DNA from: an uncultured Acidimicrobiia bacterium
Lineage (GTDB): Bacteria; Actinomycetota; Acidimicrobiia; Acidimicrobiales; AC-14
Assembly (NCBI GenBank): GCA_963836205.1
Contig: CAWIIV010000017.1
Coordinates: forward strand, 96,001-160,000
Direction of reading: 5' to 3'
Length of the DNA: 64,000 nucleotides
Program-made: the position numbers and the translations under genes
Notes under the pieces: generated by a model
What the model was told of the DNA's origin: nothing
Seen by the model: the letters and a program-made list of their open reading frames with translations, nothing else
Databases searched by the model: none
Shown here: positions 4,665 through 51,989 of the stretch, in pieces
Position numbering within the stretch: the first letter of the stretch is position 1
How the letters are laid out: each line of letters opens with the position of its first letter

Positions 4665-5630
4665 ATGCCTGCTGTCACCGTCGACAACGTCCTCACCCTG
4701 CCCCGGATCGACCGTCCCGTTGCGCAGGCAGCCACCGAGCGCCCGGTGGTTTCCGTCACCAGCGCCCCCAGCGGGTTCGAGGGCGAGGGGTTCCCGGTGC
4801 GCCGGGCCTTCGCCGGGGTCGACCTGGCCCTCCTCGACCCCTTCATCCATATGGACCAGATGGGCGAGGTCGAGTACGGCCCGGGCGAGGCCAAGGGCAC
4901 GTCGTGGCATCCCCACCGTGGCTTCGAGACCGCGACCTACATCATCGACGGCACCTTCGAGCACCAGGACAACGCCGGTGGTGGCGGGGTGATCACCAAC
5001 GGCGACACCCAGTGGATGACGGCCGGCGCCGGCATCCAGCACATCGAGCGCCCGCCGGACGCCCTGGTCCAGAGCGGGGGGACCTTCCACGGCCTCCAGC
5101 TGTGGGTCAACCTGCCCAAGGCCCAGAAGTGGGAGGCGCCCCGCTACCAGGACATCGGCGCCGGCCGGGCCACCCTGCTCACCACCCCCGACGGCGGCGC
5201 ATTGGTACGGGTGATCGCGGGCGACATCGCCGGCCACCTCGGGCCGGGGGTCACCCACACGCCGATGGCGTTCGTCCACGCCACCCTCAGCCCGGGCGCC
5301 GAGCTGGTCCTCCCGTGGGATCAAGACTTCAACGCCCTCGTCTACGCCCTCAACGGCGAGGGAACTGTTGGTTCCGGCCGGCGCCCGTTCCGGATGGGAC
5401 AGCTGGCCGTGTTCGGCAGGGGCGACTTCGTCACCGTCGCCGCCTCCGAGCGCCAGGAGAGCCGCAGCCCCAACCTCGACGTGATCGTCCTCGGCGGACG
5501 GCCGATCCGCGAGCCGATCGCCTGGTACGGGCCGTTCGTGATGAACACCCGGGAGGAAGTCATCCAGGCCATGGACGACTTCCACGCCGGCCGTCTGGGC
5601 ACCGTCCCCGCCTCCAGCCTCAAGGCGTAG
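4665..5630 (+). CDS. Pirin family protein
   Basis: DPFIHMDQMG, WHPHRGFET, QWMTAGAGIQHIE, YGPFVMNT; RBS AGGAGG. Confidence 0.96.
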   Translation: MPAVTVDNVLTLPRIDRPVAQAATERPVVSVTSAPSGFEGEGFPVRRAFAGVDLALLDPFIHMDQMGEVEYGPGEAKGTSWHPHRGFETATYIIDGTFEHQDNAGGGGVITNGDTQWMTAGAGIQHIERPPDALVQSGGTFHGLQLWVNLPKAQKWEAPRYQDIGAGRATLLTTPDGGALVRVIAGDIAGHLGPGVTHTPMAFVHATLSPGAELVLPWDQDFNALVYALNGEGTVGSGRRPFRMGQLAVFGRGDFVTVAASERQESRSPNLDVIVLGGRPIREPIAWYGPFVMNTREEVIQAMDDFHAGRLGTVPASSLKA

Positions 5631-5643
5631 TGGCGCCGGCAGC

Positions 5644-6117
5644 GTGAACACCGTCGACGACCTGGCCCCGTTCGTGGGGACGTGGCGGGGCCGGGGCGAA
5701 GGCGAGTACCCCACCATCGAGCCGTTCGGCTACTCCGAGGAGCTGGTGGTGGCGCCGGTGCCGGGACGACCGCTCCTCACGTGGACGTGCCGCACCCGAG
5801 ACGTCGAGGGCAACGCCCGCCACGCCGAGTCCGGCTTCGTACGGGCGGTCGCCGAGGGGGTGGAGCTGGTTCTGGCCCACAATTTCGGCCTGGTGGAGGT
5901 GGCGGTGGGTTCGGTCGGCGACGGCCGGCTCGAGGTGGACAGCCTCTCGACGACCGGCACCCCGACAGCCAAGGACGTGGCCGCCATTCGCCGCCGGTAC
6001 GTGGTCGACGGCGACGAGCTCCGCTACCAGATCGCCATGGCCGCGGTGGGGGTCCCCCTCACCCACCACCTGCGGGCGACGCTCACCCGGGTCGCCCCGA
6101 CCCCGACTGGCCGGTAG
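5644..6117 (+). CDS. Nitrobindin/FABP-like (THAP4-like) heme-binding protein
   Basis: [34 protein letters not shown]. Confidence 0.9.
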
Positions 6118-6149
6118 TCCCGCGCACTCCCGCCGGGTACGGTGACAGC

Positions 6150-7397
6150 GTGGCTGAGCCCAGGGTGCTGGCGATGGTGCTGGCCGGCGGCGAAGGCAAG
6201 CGCCTCTTCCCGCTCACGGCCGACCGGGCCAAGCCTGCGGTCCCCTTCGGCGGGCACTACCGGCTGATCGACTTCGCCCTGTCCAACCTGGCCAACGGCG
6301 GGTACCTGCGCATCGTCGTGCTCACCCAGTACAAGTCCCACAGCCTCGACCTCCACATCAGCCGCACGTGGCGCCTGTCGACGCTGCTCGACACCTACGT
6401 CACCCCGGTGCCGGCCCAGATGCGCCGTGGGCCGCGGTGGTTCGCAGGGTCGGCCGACGCCATCTTCCAGAACCTCAACCTCATCGGCGACGACCGCCCC
6501 GACTACATCTGCGTCTTCGGGGCCGACCACATCTACCGCATGGACCCCCGCCAGATGGTCGAGCAGCACGTGGCCACCGGGGCGGGCGTCACCGTGGCGG
6601 CTATCCGGGTGCCGAAGGACGAGTCCACCAGCTTCGGGGTCCTCGAGGCCGGGCCGGGCACGACCATCGCCGCCTTCAAGGAGAAGCCCCACGAGGTCGA
6701 GGGCCTGCCCGACGCCCCCGACCAGATCTTCGCGTCCATGGGCAACTACGTCTTCACCACCTCGACCCTCGTCGACGCCGTCACCCAGGACTCCGACGAC
6801 GAGGAGTCGCTCCACGACCTCGGGGGCGACATCATCCCCATGCTGGTCAAGGCGGGCCAGGCCCACTTCTACGACTTCACCAACAACGACGTGCCCGGCG
6901 TCACCGAGCGGGAACGGGGCTACTGGCGCGACGTGGGCACGCTCGACGCCTACTACGACGCCCACATGGACCTGGTGTCGGTCCACCCCGTGTTCAACCT
7001 CTACAACCGGTGGTGGCCGATCCACACGTCGGTGCGCCAGCTGCCGCCGGCCAAGTTCGTGCACGAGGCCGGCGAACGCACCGGGCGGGCGGTGAACTCG
7101 CTCGTCTGCGCCGGCGCCATCGTCTCCGGGGGCCTGGTGCGGGGCTCGGTGCTGTCGCCCGGCGTCATGTGCGACGACCACTCCCTGGTGGAGGACTCGG
7201 TGCTGCTCGACGACGTGGTGGTGGGGGCGGGCGCCATCGTCCGCCGGGCCATCATCGACAAGAACGTGATCATCCCCGCCGGGGCCCGCGTCGGCGTCGA
7301 CCACGAGGACGACGCCGACCAGTACAACATCTCGCAGCACGGGGTGGTGGTCGTCGGCAAGGGACGGAAGGTGGCGGGCCCCCTCCCCCGCCGGTGA
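6150..7397 (+). CDS. glgC: Glucose-1-phosphate adenylyltransferase
   Basis: [41 protein letters not shown]. Confidence 0.97.
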
Positions 7398-8587
7398 GGG
7401 TCGCCCTCCTGACCCGGGAGTACCCGCCCGAGGTCTACGGCGGGGCCGGGGTCCACGCCGCCTACCTCAGCCGCGAGCTGGCCCGCGTGGTCGACCTCGA
7501 CGTCCACTGCTTCGGGGCGCCCCGGGACGCGGCCAACGTCACCGCCTACGAGGCGTGGCCCGAGGTCGCCGCCGGCCCCAACGGCGACGTGCTCGGCGTG
7601 TTGTCGGTCGACCTGGCCATGGCCGCCGCCACCGCCGGCGCCGACCTCGTCCACACCCACACCTGGTACGCCAACCTGGGCGGGCACCTGGCCAAGGTTC
7701 TCCACGGCATCCCCCACGTGCTGACCACCCACAGCCTGGAGCCGCGCCGGCCGTGGAAGGCAGAGCAGCTGGGCGCGGGCTACGCCCTGTCGTCGTGGTG
7801 CGAGCGCACCGCCATCGAGGCGGCCGACGCCGTCGTCGCCGTGTCCGCCGGCATGCGGGCCGACATCCTCGAGACCTACCCCGCGGTCGACCCGGCGCGG
7901 GTGGTCGTCATCCCCAACGGGATCGACCCCGACGAGTACCAGCCCGACCCCGGCACCGACCTGCTCGTCCGCCTGGGCATCGACCCCGACCGGCCCTCGG
8001 TGGTCTTCGTCGGCCGCATGACCCGGCAGAAGGGCATCGACCACGCCTTGGAGGCGTCCGTCCACATCGACCCCTCGGCCCAGGTGGTGTTGTGCGCGGG
8101 GGCGCCCGACACGCCCGAGATCGGCGCCGAGCTCCGGCGGCGTGCCCTCGAGCGGCCGAACGTCGTGTGGGTGGAGGAGATGGTCCCCCGCACGACCCTC
8201 GTCCAGATCCTCAGCCACGCCTCGGTGTTCCTGTGCCCGTCGGTCTACGAGCCGTTCGGGATCACCAACCTGGAGGCCATGGCCTGCGAGGTGCCGGTGG
8301 TGGCCAGCGCGGTGGGCGGCATCCCCGAGGTGGTGGTCGACGGGGAGACGGGCTTCCTCGTGCCGATCGAGGTCGACGAGGACGGGTTGCCGGTCGATCC
8401 CGCCCGCTTCGCCCGCCGGCTGGCGGCCCGGGTGAACCAGCTGCTGGCCGACCCGGCCGCCGCCGGGGCCATGGGCCGGGCCGGCCGCCGCCGGGTGCTC
8501 GAGCACTTCAGCTGGCCCAGCATCGCCGCTCGCACGGTGGAGCTGTACGAGCGGGTGTTGGGCGTCGGCGTCACACCGGCGGGCTGA
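7394..8587 (+). CDS. glgA: Actinobacterial glycogen synthase / GlgM-type GT4 glucosyltransferase
   Basis: [46 protein letters not shown]; GTGA overlap with glgC. Confidence 0.95.
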
Positions 8588-9560
8588 CCTCCCGCTTCTC
8601 GGCCCGCAGTGAGGCGAGGACCGCCACCGTGAGGGACAGGGTGATGACGATCAGGCTGAGCCACGTCGGGAAGTGGTACAGCTCGGTGATCAGCATCTTG
8701 ATCCCCACGAAGCCGAGGACCACGCCCAGCCCGATGTTGAGGTAGCGGAACCGCCCGGCCATCCCGGCCAGGCAGAAGTACAAGGCCCGCAGGCCCAGGA
8801 TGGCGAAGGCGTTGGAGGCGAAGACGATGAACTCCTCCCGGCTCACGGCCAGGATGGCGGGGATCGAGTCGACCGCGAACACCACGTCGGTCGTCTCGAT
8901 CAGGATCAGGACGGCGAACAGCGGCGTGGCCAGGCGCACCCCGGTGCGGCGGGTGAACATCTTCTGCCCGTCGTACTCGCTGGTGGACGGGACCAGCTTC
9001 CGCACGATCTTGAGCGCGGGGTTCTTGTCGGGATGGACCTCGGCGTCGCCGTGGCGGGCGATCTTGACCGCGGTGTACAGGAGGAAGGCCCCGAAGATGT
9101 AGAGGATCCATTCGAAGGACTCGATCAGGGCCACGCCGGCGAAGATGAAGACGGCCCGCAGGACGAGGGCGCCGAAGATGCCCCAGAACAGGACTCGGAA
9201 CTGGTACTCCCGGGGCACCCCGAAGTAGCTGAAGATCACCGCCCAGACGAAGACGTTGTCGACCGAGAGGCTCTTCTCGATGAGGTAGCCGCTCAGGTAC
9301 TCGCCGGCGGCCGTGCCTCCCTGCCACCAGAGCATGACGAACGTGAACGACAGACCGATGGCGATCCAGACGGCCGACTCGATGGCCGCCTCCCGGAAGG
9401 TGATGACGTGAGCCGTGCGGTGGACGAGGAGGAGGTCGGCCACCAACATCGTGACCAACACCGCCAACAGCGCGCCCCACACCCAGAGGGGAACGTCGAA
9501 GGAGGCGAAGGTGGCGGCGTCGGCACCGTCGGCAGCGGCGGCCAACAGGGGGGTGAGCAA
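8571..9560 (-). CDS. TerC/Alx family metal homeostasis membrane protein
   Basis: GYLIEKSLSVDNVFV, DVVFAVDSIPAI, SNAFAILGLRALYF. Confidence 0.95.
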   Translation of the reverse strand: MLTPLLAAAADGADAATFASFDVPLWVWGALLAVLVTMLVADLLLVHRTAHVITFREAAIESAVWIAIGLSFTFVMLWWQGGTAAGEYLSGYLIEKSLSVDNVFVWAVIFSYFGVPREYQFRVLFWGIFGALVLRAVFIFAGVALIESFEWILYIFGAFLLYTAVKIARHGDAEVHPDKNPALKIVRKLVPSTSEYDGQKMFTRRTGVRLATPLFAVLILIETTDVVFAVDSIPAILAVSREEFIVFASNAFAILGLRALYFCLAGMAGRFRYLNIGLGVVLGFVGIKMLITELYHFPTWLSLIVITLSLTVAVLASLRAEKREVSPPV

Positions 9561-9656
9561 GGAATTCCCTTTCGGAGGTGGAGGGCCACGAGTGCTCGTG
9601 GGGAGGCCGGTCGGGCGGTGCGGTCGCCGGCAGCGGGGCGGCAGCCGGGCAGGGGT

Positions 9657-10043
9657 TCAGACCGCCGGCAGCGGCGGCCCCCGGTCGCCACCCGCCCGGC
9701 GGCCCGTCGACGAGCGGACCACCGGCCCGGGAGGGGGGACGAAGCGGCCGGCAAGCGCGAGCCCGGTGACGATGACGGCAGCCGCCAACACCGCCGCCGG
9801 AACCGTCGGAGACCGGCGGGCGGCGTCGACCGGACGGTACGCGTCGGCCAGCGCCAACCCGGGGTTTGGCCCGATTCTGACGAGCCCCTCGACCGTTGTC
9901 GCACCGACGGACCGGGCCGGCTGTCCGGCCGTCCGCCCTGCCGCGAGGACGACCGCGACCAGGGCGACCAGGGCGAAGGCGGCGATGCCGGCAGCGGTCG
10001 CCGGTCGCCGGTGGGGATGCGGGAGACGGGTGGGAGGTCGCAT
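9657..10043 (-). CDS. Membrane-associated upstream ORF ending in RGPP; putative ribosome-arrest leader of terC
   Basis: Two hydrophobic segments, C-terminal DRGPPLPAV, stop 96 bp before the terC start; second copy at 11090-11478. Confidence 0.65.
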   Translation of the reverse strand: MRPPTRLPHPHRRPATAAGIAAFALVALVAVVLAAGRTAGQPARSVGATTVEGLVRIGPNPGLALADAYRPVDAARRSPTVPAAVLAAAVIVTGLALAGRFVPPPGPVVRSSTGRRAGGDRGPPLPAV

Positions 10044-10195
10044 CAGGGTGGTGGCGCCCCGAAGGGGGACAGCCGGCTCAGGTTACCAACGCCCGGCTCC
10101 ACTCGGCGGTGCAGGGAGGGCCGCCTCCAACGAAGCGAAGGCGACAAGCTCAGCCCGTCGGCGAGCCGGCCAACCGCGACGGGCGACAAACAACG

Positions 10196-10612
10196 TCACG
10201 TGGGGCTGGTGATGGCGATGGTCGGAAAGTACGTCCGATACCGAGACGGGTCGCGTGTGAGCAATCCCAGTTCGGCAACGGCGGCGTGCGCTCCAATGAA
10301 GAAGTCGGGGAGCGGCGAGGATCTCGTTCCGCGGTTGCGCCGGTAGTCGAGGAACGTCTTGCCCGCCAGGAATGCCGCCTCCCACGGCAGGGCCAGCCGA
10401 CCATAGTCGCCGGGCGGGACGGCGGCATCGAGGTCCTCGATGCGACTGAAGCGGACCGAAACCTCGGCATAGATGACCGGGTTGATGAACAACGGGCCGG
10501 CGTCGGCGGCCCGGGCCAGCGCGTTCGCCGACCACCCGAGCCAGACCTCGTCCTCCGTCAGCACGTCGAGAAGCACGTTGCTGTCGACGAGAGTGCCGAT
10601 AGCCATCGTCAC
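10196..10612 (-). CDS. vapC: VapC family PIN-domain toxin
   Basis: LVDSNVLLD, YAEVS, LPDFFIGAHA, LLTRD. Confidence 0.95.
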   Translation of the reverse strand: MTMAIGTLVDSNVLLDVLTEDEVWLGWSANALARAADAGPLFINPVIYAEVSVRFSRIEDLDAAVPPGDYGRLALPWEAAFLAGKTFLDYRRNRGTRSSPLPDFFIGAHAAVAELGLLTRDPSRYRTYFPTIAITSPT

Positions 10613-10836
10613 AGCTGCCGGGTCAAAGCCATGATCTCCTCGGTCGTAAGCGCGACGTCGCCTCGCCCGCGTAGCCGCTGGACCAGCCGACTTCCACGCG
10701 TCGGCCCCTCCGCCAGCTTCCGGATCACGATCGCGTCGTCGTCTCGGTGGAACTCGACTTCGGTTCCGGCTCCGATCCCGAGCTCGTCGCGTAGGCGCTT
10801 GGGGATCGTCACCTGGCCCTTCTCCGTGACTCGCAT
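10609..10836 (-). CDS. vapB: AbrB/MazE/SpoVT family antitoxin
   Basis: MRVTEKGQVTIPKRLRDELGI...TTEEIMALTR; GTGA overlap with toxin. Confidence 0.93.
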   Translation of the reverse strand: MRVTEKGQVTIPKRLRDELGIGAGTEVEFHRDDDAIVIRKLAEGPTRGSRLVQRLRGRGDVALTTEEIMALTRQL

Positions 10837-10858
10837 GTAGGAAGACTACCGTTCCTAC
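10837..10858 (-). promoter_or_regulatory. vapBC operator palindrome overlapping a -10 box (leaderless promoter)
   Basis: GTAGGAA-N8-TTCCTAC abuts the ATG; TAGTCT lies 6 nt upstream of the ATG on the minus strand. Confidence 0.7.
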
Positions 10859-10861
10859 TCC

Positions 10862-11072
10862 TACCGACGGTGGGGACGGTTGACGAGCCCGCCGCCGGGC
10901 GCCAAGGCCGGGCGTTGGCGATCGTGCCCGACTCCACCCGGTCGGGGGCGAGCCGGCGGAAAGGCTCGAAGAGGTCGTCGACCTGGGCGGCGGGGACGAC
11001 GGGGCCCGAATTCGTGACTCGAACCCGTCCCGCGGGGCCGGTCTCGACCGTCAGCCATCCGCCGCCGGCCAT
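10862..11072 (-). pseudogene. Degenerate copy of the histidine kinase C-terminus
   Basis: GGWLTVETGPAGRVRVTNSGPVVPAAQVDDLFEPFRRLAPDRVES closely matches the kinase at 28125-28265. Confidence 0.85.
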
Positions 11073-11089
11073 TGGGGCAGCGGGCCGGA

Positions 11090-11478
11090 TCAGACGGCCG
11101 GAAGCGCCGGGCCCCGATCGCCACCCGCCCAGCGGAATGTCCACGAGCGGACCACGGGCCCGGCCGGGGGGACGAAGGGCCCGGCCAGAGCAAGTCCGGT
11201 GACGATGATCGCGGCCGCCAGCACTGCCACGGGGACGGCGGATGACCGGCGGGCGGCATCGACCGGCCGGTAGCCGTCCGTCGGCGCCGAGCCGGGGTCC
11301 GTCCCGACCTGCACGAGCCCGCGCCCACCCGTTTCACGTCGGCCCGGCGGTCCACCCCGCGGCCACAACGACGGCAAGGATGGCGAGCACGGGCATGGCG
11401 CCGGGGCCGACGGTGGACGACGGTCGGCGGCGGGGAGGCGGGAGGCGGGAGGCGGGAGGCGGGAGGCGGTCGCATCAA
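11090..11478 (-). pseudogene. Frameshifted second copy of the RGPP leader ORF
   Basis: YRPVDAARRS..P.AVLAAA.IVTGLALAG.FVPP.GPVVRS...AGGDRGPALPAV, spread over three frames; promoter region also duplicated. Confidence 0.85.
11433..11467. repeat. Heptamer tandem repeat (GGGAGGC)x5
   Basis: Five perfect copies counted directly. Confidence 0.95.
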
Positions 11479-11746
11479 GGGGTGGTGCCCGGGAGGGACA
11501 GCCAGCCCAGGATACCAACGACTCGTCCCGCGCGGCAGTGCGCCAGTGCGCCGCCATCCCCCGGCATGCCCGGCCCGACATCGGCGCCGATCGGGGTCCG
11601 CCAGAGCCCAGGTTCCTTCCCGTGGGCATCCGCGATCGGCGTTCAGTGGGCCGGTTAAGCTCGGTGTCGCGAGCTGGGGAGCGCGTTGAGGGAGGGGGGC
11701 GGGCGCCGTTCACTCGGATCGTGCGAATCCATGCCGCAGAAGCATC

Positions 11747-14026
11747 ATGGTCGGCGTACTGGGCGGCCTCGGGGTGTGGCGTGATGGCACCCCCGTGGCC
11801 GTGAGTTCCGGAGTCGCCTCGGTGTTGCTCTCCATGCTGGCCGTCGAGCGCCACCCGGTGACATCGAACGAGCTCCTCGACGTGCTCCAGCGTGTCGGGG
11901 TCAAGATCCGCTCCCAGGCGACGGTTCACACCGCCGTGTGGCGACTCCGGCGGGTCTTGGGCGACGATGCGCTCGCCGCCGCCGTCGGCTACAGCCTCAA
12001 CCGGGACATCTGCACTACCGACGCCGCCATCTTCGAGGACACGCTGGCTGATGCCCGTGCCAAACGGGCGGCAGGCGATCCCTGCGGTGCGGCCGCTCTG
12101 TTCGGCGAGGCGATCGCACTGTGGCGGGGCCCGGCCCTCGCCGAGCTCTCCGCCGGGTCTCACCGCTACCCGCACGCGCTCCGACTCGAAGAGCTGCGGA
12201 TCGGTGCGTCCGAGGAGTGGGCGGCCGCGCTGGCGGCCGACTCCCGTCCCGGCGAAGCCGTTCGGGTTCTGGAGCGGATCGTGCACGCCCACCCGCTCCG
12301 AGAGCACGCGTGGGCCCTGCTGATCGTGGCCCAGGATCAGGCGGGCCGGCGGGCGGACGCCCGCTTCTCTTTCGACCAGGCCCGTCTGCGCCTCGCCGAG
12401 CACGGCCTCGAACCCGGTTTGGAGCTCCTCGCCCGGTCCGCTCGGCTGGCCGTCCCCCCACTGGCCTCGGACGTCGACGGCGACGACCCTGGTACCCCGC
12501 TGCCGCCGATCGTGAAGGTGTTGCGCCGGCACCCCGTCGTGGGCCACCACGAGACGCTCGACATCCTGCGAACGGCGCTCGGATTGGACACCGCCGACCT
12601 GGGGACGTCGATCGTGCTGGTGTCGGGCCCAGCGGGGATCGGCAAGACGCGCCTGGTCGCCGAAGCGGTCGCCGAGGCGCATCGGGCCGGCGCGCGGATC
12701 TGGTTCGAGGTGACGGACTCGGGGTCGTGTGCTCCTCTGTCGCCGCTGGGGAGCTGGGCCCGAGCCGTGGCTTCGGGCCTGCCCCAGAGCCGGGAGCAGG
12801 AGGTCTGCCGCGGTCCCCTCCGCTCGCTTCTCCACCCCTCGGAGGCTTGGCCCGCTTCGACGGACCCCGATCACGAGCGGTGGGCGCTCTACGAGGCCGT
12901 GGCCGCGCTGGTTGCCGAGGTCTGCGGCCGACGGTCTGTGCTGGTGCTCGACGACCTTCACCGCGCCCCCAGCGACACCCTGGCCCTGCTGGGCTACCTG
13001 TTGAGCACCCGGCCGAGTCTGCCCCTGTGCGTCGTGTGCTCGTACCGGCCCGGCGCCGTCGATGACCAGTGGCTTGCCGCGCTCCAGGCGCTCAAGCGGC
13101 ATCCGGGTCTGACGGGCGACGTCGTGGTGCCCGCGCTCGATCGGCAGGCGTCCACCCAGCTGTTCGCGACCCTGAGCCCGAGCGCGGACGACGTTGAGGC
13201 CGACGACGACGAGCTGGCCGACCGCCTGGTGCGCGTAACCGGCGGGAACCCGGCGCTGATCCACCGCGTGGCCTTCGACGGGGATGCCCTCGCCCATGCC
13301 GTCAAAGGAGGCCCGCTTCCAGGGACGCTGGCGCAGGAGGTCGCCGGTCGGCTGACCGAGCAGCTCGACGCCGACAGCCGTTGGGCTGTCGAACTGGCCG
13401 CAGCCGCAGCCGTCGCCCAGCCGGTCGTCCCCGGGCGGGTGCTGGTTGCCGCGGCGGCGCTCATCGGGCGGCCTTCCGCGTGCCCGGTGCTCGACGGCGC
13501 CCGGAAGGCGACCAACGCGGGAATCCTGCACGAGGCGCCCGGGGTAGAGCATGCCTGGCACTTCGACAACGAGCTCTTCTGCCATTCCATCTACGAGTGC
13601 ATCCCCGCGCAGCACCGCGAGCGCATGCACGGCGCCATCGGCGACGTCCTCCGATCACTGCCCGACCCGGTCAGCGACGACCGGCGGGCGGAGCGGATCG
13701 CGTTTCACCTCTACCGGGCCTGGCCCGGGTGCCAGGCCGCGGAGGCGGCCCTGTGGTTGCGCGCCGCCGCCGAGCAGGCGATCGACCGGGCCGACCACAA
13801 GGGCGCGGCCGCCCTCGTCGCCCAGGCACTTGAGCTCTACGCGGGAGAGGCGACCTCCACTGCCGACCGGGAGCGGGGCGAGTTGTGGTTGTTCCTCGGC
13901 CGGGCACGGGTCGGTGCGGGCGACGGGCCCGGTGCGGCGATGGCCTTCAACGAAGCTGGCCGGCTGGGCCGGCAGTACGGGTGGCCGGACATCGAGGCCG
14001 CCGCCGTGGTGAGCGCCTCGAGGTGA
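11747..14026 (+). CDS. AfsR/SARP-type regulator (winged helix, BTAD, AAA ATPase)
   Basis: GVLGGL, ALWRGPALAE, HPLREHAWALLI, GPAGIGKT, LVLDDLH, TGGNP. Confidence 0.88.
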   Translation: MVGVLGGLGVWRDGTPVAVSSGVASVLLSMLAVERHPVTSNELLDVLQRVGVKIRSQATVHTAVWRLRRVLGDDALAAAVGYSLNRDICTTDAAIFEDTLADARAKRAAGDPCGAAALFGEAIALWRGPALAELSAGSHRYPHALRLEELRIGASEEWAAALAADSRPGEAVRVLERIVHAHPLREHAWALLIVAQDQAGRRADARFSFDQARLRLAEHGLEPGLELLARSARLAVPPLASDVDGDDPGTPLPPIVKVLRRHPVVGHHETLDILRTALGLDTADLGTSIVLVSGPAGIGKTRLVAEAVAEAHRAGARIWFEVTDSGSCAPLSPLGSWARAVASGLPQSREQEVCRGPLRSLLHPSEAWPASTDPDHERWALYEAVAALVAEVCGRRSVLVLDDLHRAPSDTLALLGYLLSTRPSLPLCVVCSYRPGAVDDQWLAALQALKRHPGLTGDVVVPALDRQASTQLFATLSPSADDVEADDDELADRLVRVTGGNPALIHRVAFDGDALAHAVKGGPLPGTLAQEVAGRLTEQLDADSRWAVELAAAAAVAQPVVPGRVLVAAAALIGRPSACPVLDGARKATNAGILHEAPGVEHAWHFDNELFCHSIYECIPAQHRERMHGAIGDVLRSLPDPVSDDRRAERIAFHLYRAWPGCQAAEAALWLRAAAEQAIDRADHKGAAALVAQALELYAGEATSTADRERGELWLFLGRARVGAGDGPGAAMAFNEAGRLGRQYGWPDIEAAAVVSASR

Positions 14027-23628: not shown

Positions 23629-23916
23629 GCCCAGGGGCGTTAGGCCAGGTCGGCCCGTTGTGGTTGTCGCTCAGACTTGGAGGCAGCGGTGCCAGCAAGG
23701 TTGATTTCGGCCGATGGTCTCAACCGCATGGCGCGGGACCCTCACCAAGGCCTTCCCGGGCGGGAAGCCCCGGCGTCCCCGATGCGGCACGCTTACCGTG
23801 GCATCCTGTACCAGACTGTCATCATTCGCCGAACGACCGCTGTTAACGTGCTCGAACGAGCGCCGCCCCAGCAGTGGGTGTGGCGCATTCTCGGCTGATC
23901 GTCGAAGGCCAAACGC

Positions 23917-26126: not shown

Positions 26127-28083
26127 ATTGGTAGTCAGGGGCGCGTTGCCGGCAAGGCCAGCACGTTTCCCCATCCCCCTTTCAATCCGTACGTGCGGTT
26201 TTCCCGCATACGGCTTTCCGACGATCTTCTGGACATGGTTACGACGCCTTCGGGTAGCGAATGGTGCCCATGAGCTGATGCAGGCCCTGGCCGTGGAACC
26301 AGGTGCGGGTCCAGCAGTCTGCCTGGCCTGCCCGTAGGTTGCGGCCCCGCTTCTTGATGAGCAAGCGCTTGAGCCGCCACACGACGTGTCGGTCGAGGGA
26401 GACGAACTTATTCGCCGCGTTGCCGGTGCGGAAGTAGTTGCCCCACCCCCGCAGGAACAGGTTGAGGTCGTAGATCACGTCCTCCAACTCCATGCCGACC
26501 CGGTTCCGGCCGGTGAGGGCCTTGACCCGCTGTCGTGCCCGCTTCATCGACCGCTGCGACGGCCAGCGGTGGAGGTAGTAGCGGATGACCCGCTGCTGTT
26601 CCCACAACCGGCCCGACATGCGGGCGTGAAGATGACAACCCAGGAAGTCGAAGCCCTCCTTGCCCTCCCGGAGGTCGACCACACGGGTCTTGTCCGGGTG
26701 CAGGCTCAGGCCGAGATCACCCAGCAGGGCCGCCGCCCTGGCCTGGGCCGTCTCGGCCTGGCTGCGGGTCGTGCACAGCACCACGAAGTCGTCCGCGTAA
26801 CGGACGAGCTCGCCGGTGCCGGACTCGGCCCAGGACCGGTCGAAGGCGTGCAGGTAGATGTTGGCCAGCAGCGGGGAGATGACCCCGCCCTGGGGCGTGC
26901 CCGTGACCGTCTCGGAGCGCACCCCCTCGACCAGCACCCCGGCACGCAGCCACTGGCGGATGAGCTTGAGCACCCGCCGGTCCGACACGCGCTCGCCGAC
27001 CAGTGACAGCAGCCTGTCGTGGTCGATCTGGCCGAAGAAGTCGCGGATGTCGGCCTCGAAGACGAACTGCCGTCCTCGGGGGAAGGACACCCGGATGGCT
27101 TCCAGGGCGTCGGTGGCCGACCGCTTCGGGCGGAACCCGAAGCTCTGGGGCAGGAAATCGGCCTCGAAGATGGGTTCGAGGACGATCTTGGCTGCCGCCT
27201 GGCACACCCGGTCGCGCACGGTGGGGATGCCCAGGGGCCGCATCCGGCCGTCGGGCTTGGGGATCTCCACCCGCCGAACAGGCGACGGGCGGTAGGTGCC
27301 TGCACGGAGGTCACGGGAAAGCTCGTCGAGCACGCGCCCGACCCCGTAGTCCTCCACCGCCTCCAGGGTCAGTCGATCGACCCCGGCGGCGCCACGATTG
27401 GCTCGCACCCGCTCCCACGCCGTCCACAGCACGTCACTGCGGTGGATTCGGTCGAACAGGGCGTGGAAGCGGCGACCCGGAGACTGCTTGGCCGCAGCCC
27501 ATAGCCGGTTCTGGAGTTTTCGCACGTTGTCGGTGGGCGGCTGCCCGCCGGGGGAGTTGGGCCGGGCGTTCCCGGCCATGCCCTGGCGCTTACTTCCGTC
27601 TCCGGCGTGACCGAAGTCGGGGCCCTTCCCTCCCGCCGGGTTCATCCCGGCGATCAGCGGTACTACGACCCCGTCGGACTCCCGCTGCGCTCCGCTCGAT
27701 TTCACCACTGGCTTATACGAGCGGTCTTTGCTGACGAGGCTGCGCAGACGGGTCTCTCCTGTTCCGAACCTGACCGTGCGTACGTGCCGCTCCCCGTACC
27801 CCGAGGGGACCCGACCAGGGGCGTGTCCGGAACGCCAGTCGGTCGGACGTGGCCTTCGCCGTGACATGAGCGGCTCGGCTCCCCCGTTGTGCGTTTGACG
27901 AGGCTGCAGGACTCGCGCCTGGTGGCACTACGGCCCGCACGCTTGCTCCCTCCAAAGAGGCTCTTGACGCCCCGCTCAGCCCGCCGCCTCTCGGCGACGA
28001 ACCGGGGCCTGCTACCGGGCTCTCCGGCGATTACCCGGGCGGGACTCGCACCCGCTGGTCTGGTCCAGTTCTCAGGACGCAAC
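26127..28083 (-). mobile_element. Group II intron, full length (~1957 nt)
   Basis: 5' end (G)TTGCG; domain V AGCCGTATGCGGGAAAACCGCACGTACGG; domain VI hairpin and 3' ACCAAT; encodes RT; removal restores the host frame. Confidence 0.93.
26239..27579 (-). CDS. ltrA: Group II intron reverse transcriptase/maturase without endonuclease domain
   Basis: GAAGVD, RPLGIPTVRDR, GFRP, GTPQGGVISPLLANIYL, YADD, FDFLG, GWGNYF; start uncertain. Confidence 0.95.
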   Translation of the reverse strand: MAGNARPNSPGGQPPTDNVRKLQNRLWAAAKQSPGRRFHALFDRIHRSDVLWTAWERVRANRGAAGVDRLTLEAVEDYGVGRVLDELSRDLRAGTYRPSPVRRVEIPKPDGRMRPLGIPTVRDRVCQAAAKIVLEPIFEADFLPQSFGFRPKRSATDALEAIRVSFPRGRQFVFEADIRDFFGQIDHDRLLSLVGERVSDRRVLKLIRQWLRAGVLVEGVRSETVTGTPQGGVISPLLANIYLHAFDRSWAESGTGELVRYADDFVVLCTTRSQAETAQARAAALLGDLGLSLHPDKTRVVDLREGKEGFDFLGCHLHARMSGRLWEQQRVIRYYLHRWPSQRSMKRARQRVKALTGRNRVGMELEDVIYDLNLFLRGWGNYFRTGNAANKFVSLDRHVVWRLKRLLIKKRGRNLRAGQADCWTRTWFHGQGLHQLMGTIRYPKAS

Positions 28084-50586: not shown

Positions 50587-51006
50587 TCAGCGGGCCCGGA
50601 CCCGGTTGTTGCGGGGGTTGTGCTCCAGCTCGACCAGGCCGAGGTGCTCGAGGAGGGGTGGGACGTACATGGCGAAGCGGCCCCGGTAGCCCTTGCGCAG
50701 CCCGTACCAGCCGCCGACCGGGTTGTCCTCGGCGCGGGCCCAGGCCTCCAAGGTCCCGTCCTTGGCCGGCTTGTTCTCGTCGGCGCTGCCGAGGTCCATC
50801 CAGTCGCCGTGCTCACGGAGCATGGCCGGGGCGTCGTCCAGGCAGCGGGCGAGATACTTCAGCTTGGTCGTCCCGACGACGCAGACCAGCTCGGCCGGGT
50901 CGACGCTGTCGTCCCGGTACATCTGGTACTCGGAGGTCCCGGGCGGCGTCCTCAGGACCCACGGGTCGTCCGGGGTCCCAGTGCCGGTCGCGGCGGTGTC
51001 GGTCAT
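50587..51006 (-). CDS. Conserved hypothetical protein (DUF6855-like)
   Basis: GTPDDPWVLRTPPGTSEY, GGWYGLRKGYRGRFAMY, LEHNPRNNR. Confidence 0.8.
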   Translation of the reverse strand: MTDTAATGTGTPDDPWVLRTPPGTSEYQMYRDDSVDPAELVCVVGTTKLKYLARCLDDAPAMLREHGDWMDLGSADENKPAKDGTLEAWARAEDNPVGGWYGLRKGYRGRFAMYVPPLLEHLGLVELEHNPRNNRVRAR

Positions 51007-51009
51007 GGG

Positions 51010-51989
51010 GACCATTCTGCCCCGCTCGTCGCGACGGGCGCGGGCCCGGCGCTTGCCTTCGTGCATGGCCTGCACCCGGCCGGTGGGGATGGCGTGGCCC
51101 TCGGCGACGAGGTCGGCCGGCAGCGGCTGGGGGCCGGGCATCCGCTCGGCCCACGAGTCGCGGTCGCCGAGCTGCCGCAGGGCGGTGTGGATGGTGAAGT
51201 CGGCCGGCCGGGCGGCGTCGATCTCGCCCAGGCCGGCGGGAACGACACCGGCACGCCCGGCCGCACCCGCGGGCTGTAGGCGGCCACCACCGTCGCCCCG
51301 CCCACCCGGGTGGCGTCGACGAACACCTTCCCGTCGCGGTCCTCCTTCATGAAGGCGACGGTCGCCAGGCCGGGGTCGAGGGCCGCGGCCCGGCCGGCGA
51401 TGGCCCGGGTGGCGGCGGCCGCGTCCTCGATCGACGCCTGGTCGTCGATGGGCACGAACACGTGGACGCCCTTGGCCCCGCTGGTCTTGGCCGCCCACTC
51501 CAGGCCGACGTCGGCGAGGGCCTGGCGGACGAGCTTGGCCGCGCCGACGGCCATGGAGAAGGCGTCGATGGCGCCCTCCGGCGGGTCGAGGTCGAGGACG
51601 AGGTGGGTCATGCGGTCGGGACGGTCGACCTTGACGAGGGTCGGGTGGTATTCGATGGCCCGCTGGTTGGCGAACCACACCAGCGCGCGGCGGTCGTTGC
51701 ACAGGGCGAACGCCACCTCCCGCTTGGAGGCCTCCGCCCACATCTTCACCGTCCGGACCCACTCCGGGGTGTACTTGGGGACGTTCTTCTGCATGAACGC
51801 CTCCTGGCCTCGGTGGACCCGGATGACCGACAGCGGCCGGTCCTCCAGCACCGGGAGGATCCGGTCGGCGACCCCGTCGAGGTACTCGATGAGGTCCCGC
51901 TTGGTCGCCTCGGCACCGTCGAACAAGGGCTGGTCGAGGTTGGTCAACGTCACCCCGTGACGTGACTCCGCTGCTTTGGCCTCAGGCAT
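51010..51989 (-). CDS. ligD: Stand-alone LigD polymerase/primase domain; frameshift near 51228, 3' end uncertain
   Basis: LTNLDQPLF, TKRDL, FMQKN, LDLDPP, KTSGAKGVH, VAAYSPR, PVSFP; continues as ADFTI in another frame. Confidence 0.88.

What the first reader, a model, noticed from the sequence alone, without database searches (positions are those of the whole stretch)
9561..10090. RGPP-ending membrane leader peptide upstream of TerC: candidate arrest-peptide sensor
Seen: 128-aa ORF with N-terminal hydrophobic segment, linker, second hydrophobic segment and DRGPP four residues before the stop. A 96-bp spacer follows with a hairpin (CCACGAG-CA-CTCGTGG) and a C-rich stretch able to pair with the terC RBS. 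I see no yybP-ykoY riboswitch, the usual alx control. Known: RAPP/RAGP-type motifs stall ribosomes in SecM, ApdA and ApdP, which monitor protein export, and some TerC proteins are linked to secretion and Mn handling. Inference: terC here is controlled by a force-sensing arrest peptide, a pairing I do not recognise as described.
Basis: partly seen in the sequence, partly recalled or inferred. Interest (0 to 1): 0.75.

Follow-up and report, generated by a model that had tools for sequence, protein, structure and literature searches.

The report
Ribosome-stalling leader peptide before terC
A small membrane-protein gene just upstream of a TerC metal-homeostasis gene ends in a conserved sequence (RGPP/RAPP) known to jam bacterial ribosomes, so it is probably a stalling "leader" that tunes TerC production where a manganese riboswitch usually would.

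Summary
A 128-aa ORF (9657-10043) has two hydrophobic segments and ends DRGPPLPAV. A 96-nt spacer follows, then a TerC/Alx gene (8571-9560). No yybP-ykoY or other Rfam match was found at E<=10.

The ORF is a real gene of a tiny family seen only in uncultured Actinomycetota/Acidimicrobiales. All 12 homologues that reach the C-terminus keep RAPP (9) or RGPP (3), always exactly four residues before the stop and 24 residues after TM2. The N-terminal two-thirds drift almost neutrally (dN/dS 0.86); the TM2-tail part is constrained (0.32).

The same leader-terC arrangement occurs in the one related genome I could fetch. Two more cases are inferred from equal contig lengths.

Small membrane or secreted proteins with a C-terminal RAPP/RGPP, upstream of varied genes including metal-homeostasis genes, were shown to be arrest peptides in Streptomyces lividans (Fujiwara 2025). 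This is therefore a new member of a known kind. The TerC pairing was not found in print.

Stalling, force-sensing and the link to terC remain inferred. The C-rich spacer fits Rho-type attenuation better, weakly.

The parts
10080..10088 (-). Extended -10-like element TGgTAACCT, about 37 nt upstream of the leader ATG; candidate promoter of a leader-terC transcript (inferred)
   Evidence: The block GTTGGTA(A/T)C(C/G)T is conserved in the window copy, the window paralogue and L001 (alignments). The E. coli-type -35/-10 scan found no site in 8400-11600, so this rests on conservation and a TGnTANNNT match judged by eye. The spacer contains no TA dinucleotide (sequence), hence no TANNNT -10 of its own.
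9657..10043 (-). Leader ORF, 128 aa plus TGA stop: small two-TM protein ending DRGPPLPAV
   Evidence: Homologues. GC3 0.85. dN/dS against the L001 orthologue is 0.60 overall. No Pfam or NCBIfam family.
9939..9995 (-). Hydrophobic segment 1 (about residues 17-35), a signal-anchor or signal peptide preceded by 4 Arg
   Evidence: Hydropathy maximum 2.81. Present in 7 of the 8 R[AG]PP-bearing members scored (the exception, P0006, is N-terminally short). Its sequence is poorly conserved.
9747..9803 (-). Hydrophobic segment 2 (about residues 81-99; VPAAVLAAAVIVTGLALAG)
   Evidence: Hydropathy maximum 2.40. V81, P82, A83, A84, L86 and G94 are invariant in alignment A5.
9672..9746 (-). Conserved cytoplasmic tail (residues 100-124, RFVPPPGPVVRSSTGRRAGGDRGPP), the presumed tunnel-occupying arrest module; RGPP codons at 9672-9683. 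Predicted stall has Pro123 (9675-9677) in the P site and Pro124 (9672-9674) in the A site
   Evidence: R100, F101, R121, P123 and P124 are invariant. The alignment is gapless from TM2 to the motif. The distance from the TM2 end to the P-site Pro is 24 residues in 6 of the 8 motif-bearing members scored (26 in P0005; 19 by the hydropathy window in P0001, which the gapless alignment places in register). dN/dS for residues 77-128 is 0.32. The stall position is taken by analogy with the CruR toeprint (PMC12992588 section 14).
9561..9656 (-). Untranslated 96-nt spacer: C-rich and G-poor (49 C, 24 G), rut-like in composition
   Evidence: C/G is 1.9-2.2 in 78-nt windows, against a window-wide 99th percentile of 2.10. 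The L001 spacer is 83 nt with 39 C and 24 G. Only 51% identical to L001. No Rfam match.
9586..9601 (-). Palindrome CCACGAGCACTCGTGG (predicted 6-bp hairpin)
   Evidence: Present in the MFE and the centroid. L001 has a different 5-bp hairpin, GGCGC-GCCU-GCGCC, at the equivalent place. No T-run follows, and the terminator scan did not call it.
9566..9573 (-). terC Shine-Dalgarno-like GAAAGGGA, 5 nt before the TTG start at 9560
   Evidence: Identical in L001. Predicted P(unpaired) 0.39-0.45, unchanged by the stall constraint.
8571..9560 (-). terC/alx, 329 aa, TerC/Alx-family metal-homeostasis membrane protein
   Evidence: TIGR03718 9.1e-120, Pfam PF03741 5.9e-55. 95% identical to the L001 orthologue, dN/dS 0.12.
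11090..11478 (-). Degenerate second copy of the promoter-plus-leader module (pseudogene): two frame shifts and motif changed to RGPA
   Evidence: 74% identity over the last 80 residues. The N- and C-terminal parts lie in different frames. Relative to copy 1 there is a 13-nt insertion and a 14-nt deletion, and homology runs from about 60 nt upstream of the ATG to the stop codon only.

Best explanation
The 128-aa ORF is a regulatory leader of the RAPP/RGPP arrest-peptide class, co-transcribed with terC from a promoter just upstream of it.

Proposed sequence of events. The N-terminal hydrophobic segment targets the nascent chain to the membrane. When the ribosome reaches Arg121-Gly122-Pro123 with Pro124-tRNA in the A site, peptide-bond formation fails and the ribosome stalls. 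At that point the conserved 24-residue tail fills the exit tunnel and TM2 is just emerging. Insertion of TM2 (and translocation of the loop) by the Sec/YidC machinery would pull on the chain and release the stall. The dwell time of the ribosome at the end of the leader would therefore report how well membrane insertion or secretion is working.

That dwell time sets terC expression. I favour control of Rho-type transcription attenuation in the C-rich, untranslated leader-spacer RNA, as in CruR, TnaC and SpeFL, over unmasking of the terC ribosome-binding site. The sign of the regulation is not determined. In this lineage the arrest leader takes the place that the yybP-ykoY Mn riboswitch holds in front of many Alx/TerC genes.

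Shown: gene anatomy, motif and spacing conservation, selection pattern, synteny with terC, absence of a riboswitch. Inferred: stalling, force release, co-transcription, and the route from stall to terC.
For: (1) R[AG]PP is kept in 12 of 12 family members that have a C-terminus: RAPP in 9, RGPP in 3. Exactly 4 residues follow it each time. R121, P123 and P124 are among only 15 invariant columns of alignment A5.
(2) Spacing from TM2 to the motif is constant, with a gapless alignment.
(3) Selection is concentrated on the TM2-tail part. dN/dS is 0.32, against 0.86 for residues 1-76. The neighbouring TerC is 95% identical while the leader is only 48% identical. This is the pattern expected of an arrest module attached to a generic membrane anchor.
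(4) The degenerate paralogue has lost the motif (RGPA) along with its reading frame.
(5) The leader-terC order is conserved in L001, with an 83-nt spacer, the same SD, and convergent glgA/glgC beyond. Leader P0006 and TerC P0016 both report a 2148-bp contig. Leader P0007 and TerC P0017 both report a 3943-bp contig, both labelled as an Acidimicrobiales MAG. That suggests two more linked pairs, by inference only.
(6) There is no riboswitch and no -10-like TANNNT in the spacer.
(7) Literature. RAPP and RGPP are among the most strongly excluded tetrapeptides in bacterial proteomes. They are enriched near the C-terminus of small secretory and membrane proteins upstream of same-strand genes, including metal-homeostasis genes. 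S. lividans has nine such proteins, and all seven with a C-terminal motif and a downstream gene arrested translation in an Arg-dependent way (PMC12992588, sections 13-15).
(8) Precedent for Rho coupling: the RAPP uORF CruR (abstract of PMC9426467; passages of the review PMC12360218). The window spacer has C/G about 2, the 99th percentile of the window. The L001 spacer stays C-rich although its sequence is only 51% identical.
(9) TerC proteins of B. subtilis work with SecYEG in metalating exported enzymes (abstracts in the search listing only: PMC10550928, PMC12096827). This gives a rationale for tying terC to secretion.
Against: - No experiment exists. Stalling, its release and any effect on terC are untested.
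- Synteny is read directly in only 2 loci. I could not see the genomic context of the other nine family proteins recovered from the database searches.
- Thousands of TerC orthologues at about 80% identity exist but only 13 leader-family sequences were found (11 database proteins including truncated P0009, the window's own and the L001 ORF). So the pairing may be confined to a narrow clade, or other leaders are unrecognisably diverged or unannotated.
- The leader has no recognisable SD of its own.
- A ribosome stalled at codon 123 reaches only about as far as the stop codon, so it would not physically cover the C-rich spacer. The 5' part of the leader is equally C-rich (C/G 2.0-2.3). The rut argument therefore rests on composition alone.
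- The MFE pairs the leader's 3' end with the first half of the spacer. A stall could thus expose rather than hide C-rich RNA, which leaves the sign of regulation open.
- The 24 residues between TM2 and the P site is short relative to the roughly 28-40 residues at which TM segments exert peak force on SecM-type arrests (recalled, not checked here).
- The loop carries 6 Arg, so the topology is not certain.
- The TerC-secretion link comes from Bacillus, not Actinomycetota.
Confidence: 0.55

Rival explanations
1. Same arrest peptide, but coupled to terC as the first reader proposed (SecM/MifM/VemP/CutF style). An RNA structure in the spacer hides the terC ribosome-binding site, and the stalled ribosome opens it.
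For: This is the classical mechanism for Sec/YidC monitoring substrates and for CutF (abstract of PMC9973294). The C-rich CCCTCCACCTCC sits next to the SD. The window MFE pairs the leader's last 14 codons with the first half of the spacer, so a stall would rearrange the spacer. Both loci have a small hairpin about 25 nt upstream of the SD.
Against: Predicted SD accessibility is moderate and does not change when the stalled-ribosome footprint is forced single-stranded: 0.45 to 0.45 and 0.39 to 0.39 in the window, 0.37 to 0.37 and 0.29 to 0.32 in L001. The region folds no better than shuffled sequence (z -0.42 and +1.18). The long leader-spacer helix of the window is not reproduced in L001. The spacer is 51% identical. 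Two sequences are too few for a covariation test.
Confidence: 0.15
2. The ORF encodes an ordinary small membrane protein with a job of its own, for example an accessory subunit of TerC. The R[AG]PP motif at most causes a pause that helps targeting or folding, and terC is not regulated by it.
For: It is a conserved two-TM protein with TM2 under purifying selection. Operon partners are often physical partners. Not every motif-bearing protein need be regulatory: 2 of the 9 S. lividans RAPP/RGPP proteins were not of the leader type.
Against: The N-terminal 76 residues evolve almost neutrally (dN/dS 0.86), which is unusual for a structural partner. The most conserved part is the cytoplasmic tail ending in a motif that bacterial proteomes strongly avoid. 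The motif sits a fixed 4 codons before the stop in 12 of 12. The promoter-plus-leader module was duplicated on its own, without terC.
Confidence: 0.2
3. An undescribed RNA element (a riboswitch or sRNA target) in the 96-nt spacer controls terC, and the leader ORF is incidental.
For: Alx/TerC genes are typically riboswitch-controlled; the NCBIfam model name is R_switched_Alx. Rfam holds only described families.
Against: No Rfam match at E<=10 in either locus. The spacer is short, 51% identical with 13 gap columns, and not more stable than shuffles. The conserved information lies in the peptide tail instead.
Confidence: 0.07
4. The ORF is a chance open frame in GC-rich DNA and is not expressed.
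For: Long spurious ORFs abound here: 377 ORFs of >=60 aa in six frames. There is no SD. GC3 of 0.85 is lower than terC's roughly 0.97.
Against: Twelve further homologous sequences exist (11 database proteins from four source collections, plus the L001 ORF), all in the same frame. The start position is conserved. dN/dS for the C-terminal part is 0.32. The codon-position GC order fits the minus frame.
Confidence: 0.03

Closest known systems
RAPP/RGPP-containing arrest peptides of Streptomyces lividans (SLIV_16130, SLIV_18480, SLIV_27375, SLIV_33595/33605 and others; Fujiwara et al., EMBO J 2025, PMC12992588)
   Same: Actinomycetota. Small proteins with TM segment(s) or a signal sequence. RAPP or RGPP a few residues from the C-terminus. 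A same-strand downstream gene outside the Sec/YidC set, including metal-homeostasis genes. A conserved roughly 20-residue stretch after the last TM (sections 13-15).
   Different: No sequence similarity was detected: the searches returned only this narrow family. The downstream gene is TerC/Alx, which does not appear in that paper's main text or in the supplements I could read (several files were too large or cut). Here there are two TM segments and no conserved Cys/His cluster. Stalling has not been tested for this family.
CruR (DUF2946) of Bordetella pertussis (Roy et al. 2022, PMC9426467)
   Same: A uORF-encoded exported or membrane protein with a C-terminal RAPP that heads a metal-homeostasis operon. 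[quoted passage not shown] The leader RNA is C-rich here too.
   Different: CruR senses copper through a CXXC motif and belongs to DUF2946. The window protein has no Cys and no Pfam match. It is a Proteobacterium and the downstream gene is a TonB-dependent transporter. Involvement of Rho here is only an inference.
CutF of Rhodobacter capsulatus (Ozturk et al. 2023, PMC9973294)
   Same: A co-translationally exported sensor peptide with a C-terminal stalling motif upstream of a metal-homeostasis gene (abstract).
   Different: CutF acts by unfolding a stem-loop that shields the downstream RBS and binds Cu through a periplasmic motif. No such stem-loop is predicted here, and no metal-binding motif is conserved.
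SecM, MifM, VemP, ApdA, ApdP, ApcA: monitoring substrates of Sec/YidC
   Same: An N-terminal localisation signal plus a C-terminal arrest sequence. The R-A/G-P-P core is shared with ApdA and ApdP, and SecM has RAGP. Force-dependent release is the proposed mode. That SecM's RAGP is also followed by four residues before the stop is recalled, not checked.
   Different: The downstream gene is not a Sec/YidC component. SD unmasking is not supported by folding. There is no sequence homology.
yybP-ykoY (Mn2+) riboswitch / PRE leader of alx and other TerC genes
   Same: It occupies the same place, a 5' leader in front of an Alx-subfamily TerC gene, and presumably serves the same purpose of conditional expression.
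   Different: No match to RF00080 or any other Rfam family. The conserved information here is a peptide, not an RNA fold.

Membership tests
RAPP/RGPP-type regulatory arrest peptides (criteria as used in PMC12992588) | Core tetrapeptide RAPP or RGPP | tested here: met
   RGPP at residues 121-124. The family has RAPP in 9 and RGPP in 3 of the 12 sequences with a C-terminus.
RAPP/RGPP-type regulatory arrest peptides (criteria as used in PMC12992588) | Motif near the C-terminus of a small protein (<300 aa) | tested here: met
   128 aa, with the motif followed by 4 residues. This holds in all 12 members, which are 97-139 aa long.
RAPP/RGPP-type regulatory arrest peptides (criteria as used in PMC12992588) | N-terminal localisation signal (signal peptide or TM segment) | tested here: met
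   Two hydrophobic segments by hydropathy (maxima 2.81 and 2.40), with 4 Arg before the first. No dedicated topology predictor was available.
RAPP/RGPP-type regulatory arrest peptides (criteria as used in PMC12992588) | Downstream gene on the same strand, close by | tested here: met
   terC lies 96 nt downstream in the window and 83 nt downstream in L001.
RAPP/RGPP-type regulatory arrest peptides (criteria as used in PMC12992588) | Arg-dependent ribosome stalling (peptidyl-tRNA accumulation, toeprint at Pro-Pro) | not testable with these tools
   Needs in vitro translation or a reporter assay.
RAPP/RGPP-type regulatory arrest peptides (criteria as used in PMC12992588) | The stall changes expression of the downstream gene | not testable with these tools
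   Needs reporter fusions. According to the paper's own discussion, this is still open even for most published members.
Sec/YidC monitoring substrates (SecM, MifM, VemP, ApdA/P, ApcA) | Downstream gene encodes a Sec or YidC pathway component | tested here: not met
   The downstream gene is TerC/Alx (TIGR03718).
Sec/YidC monitoring substrates (SecM, MifM, VemP, ApdA/P, ApcA) | RNA stem-loop that sequesters the downstream SD and is opened by the stalled ribosome | tested here: not met
   SD P(unpaired) is unchanged by the stall constraint in both loci. This is a thermodynamic prediction on two sequences only, so the negative is weak.
CruR / DUF2946 copper-responsive uORF | DUF2946 domain with a conserved CXXC | tested here: not met
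   No Pfam match at E<=1 other than one sub-threshold unrelated hit. The 128-aa protein contains no Cys.
yybP-ykoY riboswitch-controlled TerC/Alx | Match to the Rfam yybP-ykoY covariance model in the 5' leader | tested here: not met
   cmscan at E<=10 over 8000-12500 and over L001 4500-5800, and at gathering score over the whole window and L001. None found.
TerC/Alx family (downstream gene) | Score above the curated cutoff of TIGR03718 / PF03741 | tested here: met
   399.7 bits against 246.4; Pfam 186.2 bits against 27.8.

The most novel reading that the evidence does not exclude
TerC is itself the monitored activity. The leader would be a true monitoring substrate whose co-translational insertion or folding depends on the TerC-SecYEG metalation machinery, or on the Mn2+ that TerC delivers to the outer face of the membrane. 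The arrest would then feed TerC activity back onto terC expression. That would make TerC the first non-Sec/YidC membrane factor with a dedicated force-sensing feedback leader. It would be independent genetic evidence, from an uncultured Acidimicrobiia lineage, that TerC belongs functionally to the protein-export apparatus. It would also be a case of a peptide sensor replacing an RNA (Mn riboswitch) sensor in evolution.
Probability: 0.1. Interest if true: 0.75.

Novelty: new member of a known kind. Interest (0 to 1): 0.5.

Why it matters
If confirmed, this adds TerC/Alx to the genes governed by RAPP/RGPP arrest leaders. TerC is a widespread but still poorly understood metal-homeostasis family, recently tied to Sec-dependent metalation of exported enzymes. 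The case would also show a peptide-based sensor standing where relatives normally carry the yybP-ykoY Mn2+ riboswitch.

The family is a compact natural test set for what an arrest module needs: about a dozen sequences, near-neutral N-terminal parts, an invariant 25-residue tail, and fixed spacings of 24 residues after TM2 and 4 codons before the stop. The link to terC gives a concrete way to ask whether TerC expression responds to secretion or membrane-insertion stress.

It does not open a new category. The class and its spread to metal-related genes in Actinomycetota were published in 2025.

Tried and rejected
- Rfam at permissive thresholds. Only noise at E 1.9-8.2 (Twister-sister, skipping-rope, a miRNA and snoRNAs, all far below gathering scores). 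One miRNA-family noise hit in L001.
- Pfam and NCBIfam for the leader. Nothing credible: INV_N at E 0.11 and DUF7327 at E 0.29, both below cutoffs.
- First call to the search for related loci with the 9-row alignment failed for lack of a conserved stretch. It was repeated with 5 closer rows and returned 1 locus.
The DNA context of P0002, P0004, P0005, P0008, P0010, P0012 and P0013 stayed unchecked.
- The representative search also returned P0003 (3108 aa, 15 matched stretches, 33% identity to residues 19-81). I dropped it as a low-complexity, repeat-type match.
- P0009 (107 aa) belongs to the family but ends just after TM2. I excluded it from the motif count because it has no C-terminal tail.
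- Complex prediction of TerC (41-row alignment) with the leader (8-row alignment) gave no verdict (score 0.00, partner pLDDT under 50). This is evidence neither way.
- Promoter/terminator consensus scan: 0 promoter-like sites, and 1 terminator-like site inside vapC at 10493-10513. The expectation from shuffles was 0.9. Uninformative for this GC-rich organism.
- Tat signal considered and rejected. The RR pair is not conserved (P0005, P0008) and no RRxFLK-like context is present.
- Metal-binding loop considered. The loop contains no Cys or His residues in the window protein, and acidic positions vary across the family, so a CruR/CutF-type ligand sensor is not supported.
- Motif depletion in this window's own coding frames could not be shown. 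My strict GC3 filter kept 10,660 residues with 0 genuine R[AG]PP but also 0 A[AG]PP.
- Supplements of PMC12992588. 'TerC', 'tellurium' and 'Alx' were not found as downstream products in the readable files. File 8 is cut at about 4 million characters and did not show the RGPP list. Four files were too large to read. The family or the TerC pairing could therefore still sit in those tables.
Full report
**What is there.** The feature lies on the minus strand. An ORF at 9657-10043 (ATG start, TGA stop) encodes 128 residues ending GGDRGPPLPAV. A 96-nt spacer (9561-9656) follows. Then comes a 329-aa gene starting with TTG at 9560, an Alx-subfamily TerC protein (TIGR03718 at 399.7 bits against a cutoff of 246.4; Pfam TerC at 5.9e-55).

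Hydropathy shows two TM-like segments, at about residues 17-35 and 81-99 (maxima 2.81 and 2.40). Four Arg precede the first and an Arg-rich tail follows the second. The description is accurate.

No yybP-ykoY or other credible Rfam match was found:
- at E<=10 in 8000-12500;
- at gathering scores in the whole window;
- at E<=10 in the orthologous locus.

**Is the ORF a gene?** Codon-position GC follows GC3>GC1>GC2 for the minus frame, with GC3 0.85. Searches recovered a small family. There was one hit in the word-indexed search, six more in the exhaustive representative search, and four more with a profile. A further member is encoded in a fetched genome locus.

Where named, the members come from uncultured Actinomycetota or Acidimicrobiales MAGs, and all are 'hypothetical protein'. 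I dropped P0003, a 3108-aa repeat protein hit through low-complexity stretches. P0009 is a family member that ends just after TM2.

**The motif.** Every family sequence that has a C-terminus keeps R[AG]PP followed by exactly four residues. That is 12 of 12, comprising P0001, P0002, P0004-P0008, P0010-P0013 and the L001 ORF. Nine have RAPP and three have RGPP.
- In the 8-row alignment only 15 columns are invariant, and R121, P123 and P124 are among them.
- The stretch from TM2 to the motif aligns without gaps.
- The P-site proline lies 24 residues after the TM2 end in 6 of the 8 motif-bearing members scored (26 in P0005). The hydropathy window gives 19 for P0001, which the gapless alignment puts in register with the others.

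Against the L001 orthologue, residues 1-76 have dN/dS 0.86 and residues 77-128 have 0.32. The adjacent TerC proteins are 95% identical (dN/dS 0.12), while the leaders are only 48% identical. Selection therefore acts on TM2 plus the tail, not on the rest. This fits an arrest module attached to a generic membrane anchor.

On chance, 3 of 377 six-frame ORFs of >=60 aa in the window carry R[AG]PP within 10 residues of the end. The other two lie opposite Pfam-supported genes, so I read them as shadow frames.

**A second copy.** At 11090-11478 (minus strand) lies a degenerate copy, 74% identical over the last 80 residues.
- It carries a 13-nt insertion and a 14-nt deletion that split it over two frames.
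- Its motif has changed to RGPA.
- Homology with copy 1 starts about 60 nt upstream of the ATG, where a conserved GTTGGTA(A/T)C(C/G)T block looks like an extended -10. It ends at the stop codon.

So a promoter-plus-leader module was duplicated without terC. It now abuts the 3' remnant of a histidine-kinase gene (weak HATPase_c match) and a VapBC pair. The loss of both frame and motif in the decaying copy is what relaxed constraint predicts.

**Linkage to terC.** The single genome locus recovered is L001, a MAG of Actinomycetota. It shows the same order: conserved -10-like block, leader (4980-5360, ending RNRAPPIPAV), an 83-nt spacer, the same SD and a TTG start, then terC. Convergent genes that by eye are glgA and glgC lie beyond, as in the window.

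Two further pairs are suggested only by matching contig lengths and sources in the protein tables. These are leader P0006 with TerC P0016 (2148 bp), and leader P0007 with TerC P0017 (3943 bp; both labelled Acidimicrobiales MAG). I could not inspect the contexts of the other members.

**What is known.** Fujiwara et al. (EMBO J 2025, PMC12992588; abstract and sections 13-15 read) report the following:
- RAPP and RGPP give robust, EF-P-resistant arrest.
- Both are strongly excluded from bacterial proteomes.
- Both are enriched near the C-terminus of small secretory and membrane proteins.
- S. lividans has nine such proteins. All seven with a C-terminal motif and a same-strand downstream gene arrested translation in an Arg-dependent manner.

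CruR (RAPP) controls Rho-dependent termination in response to copper (abstract of PMC9426467; passages of review PMC12360218). CutF controls an RBS-shielding stem-loop (abstract of PMC9973294).

The window's leader meets every sequence-level criterion of this class, so I file it as a new member of a known kind. 'TerC' does not occur in the main text of these papers. The full-text searches all failed to find the pairing:
- 'TerC' with 'arrest peptide': 0 papers;
- 'TerC' with 'translation arrest': 6 papers, none on this pairing judging by titles and abstract openings;
- 'TerC family' with 'leader peptide': 0 papers.

The readable supplements held no TerC entry, but several were cut or too large to read. 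The pairing could still be in those tables.

**How the stall might reach terC.**
- Both leader-spacer regions fold no better than shuffles (z -0.42 and +1.18).
- Forcing a 28-nt stalled-ribosome footprint single-stranded leaves the predicted SD accessibility unchanged: window 0.45/0.45 and 0.39/0.39, L001 0.37/0.37 and 0.29/0.32.
- The spacer is only 51% identical between the loci, with 13 gap columns. That is no better than the near-neutral part of the leader at 57%.

What is retained is composition: 49 C against 24 G in the window and 39 against 24 in L001. In the window, 78-nt windows reach C/G 2.15-2.2, against a window-wide 99th percentile of 2.10. That is rut-like, and CruR, TnaC and SpeFL give precedents for stalls that gate Rho.

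The argument is weak, for three reasons:
- The 5' part of the leader is equally C-rich.
- A ribosome stalled at codon 123 reaches only to about the stop codon.
- The window MFE pairs the leader's 3' end with the first half of the spacer, so a stall might expose C-rich RNA rather than shield it.

I therefore leave the sign of regulation open. I give the Rho route only a modest edge over RBS unmasking or re-initiation.

**Force sensing.** The architecture matches monitoring substrates: a localisation signal, a second TM just emerging at the stall point, and a conserved tunnel-filling tail. Fujiwara et al. state that the source of any pulling force for non-Sec leaders is an open question. No Cys/His or other ligand motif is conserved in the loop, so a CruR/CutF-type metal sensor is not indicated.

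TerC proteins of B. subtilis cooperate with SecYEG to metalate exported enzymes (abstracts in the search listing only). This makes a link between secretion state and terC expression plausible but unproven. A TerC-leader complex prediction gave no verdict.

**Verdict.** The regulatory link to terC is supported by conserved synteny and by the absence of an alternative leader element. The proposed RNA mechanism is not supported. Stalling, force release and regulation all await experiment.

Noticed in passing
window 9573-9590 (minus strand): The leader and terC are in the same reading frame, separated by the TGA at 9657-9659. Read in that frame, the spacer encodes ...STRGPPPPKGNS immediately before the terC TTG. 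This is a second RGPP, made from the hairpin's 3' arm plus the C-rich run. There is no start codon between the stop and the TTG, and the L001 spacer (83 nt) is out of frame, so it is probably coincidental. It would matter if the TGA were read through.
   Followed up: partly
window 10861-11478 (minus strand): A frameshifted duplicate of the promoter-plus-leader module (motif now RGPA) sits directly in front of a 3' fragment of a histidine-kinase gene (HATPase_c positions 22-64 only, E 0.0012). This looks like a rearrangement scar. It hints that the leader module is portable, or that it once headed another gene.
   Followed up: partly
window 10196-10836 (minus strand): A VapBC-type toxin-antitoxin pair lies between the two leader copies: a MazE/AbrB-fold antitoxin (75 aa, 7.1e-15) overlapping a PIN-domain protein (138 aa, 4.1e-06). 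It is absent from the orthologous locus L001.
   Followed up: partly
window 27923-28057 (minus strand): A group II intron D1-D4 domain (RF02003, 91 bits, E 1.1e-18) is the only Rfam match at gathering score in the window. A 542-aa ORF at 26239-27867 on the same strand lies just downstream and may be its maturase. I did not examine it.
   Followed up: no
window 11747-14026 (plus strand): A 759-aa SARP-like regulator (BTAD 6.1e-28 plus an AAA_16 ATPase domain) is transcribed divergently from the leader pseudogene.
   Followed up: no
window 5682-8587 (plus strand) and L001 6468-8928: Two genes that by eye encode ADP-glucose pyrophosphorylase (glgC-like) and a glycogen-synthase-type glycosyltransferase (glgA-like) converge on terC in both loci. 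The terC end of the neighbourhood is therefore syntenic, while the side upstream of the leader differs. I did not run these through a family search.
   Followed up: no
window 50693-51352 (+) and 23677-23898 (+): These are the only two other ORFs of >=60 aa with R[AG]PP within 10 residues of their end. Neither has a Pfam match. The first lies opposite Pfam-supported minus-strand genes (DUF6855 and the LigD primase-polymerase domain) and is probably a shadow frame. The second has a low GC3 of 0.73.
   Followed up: yes
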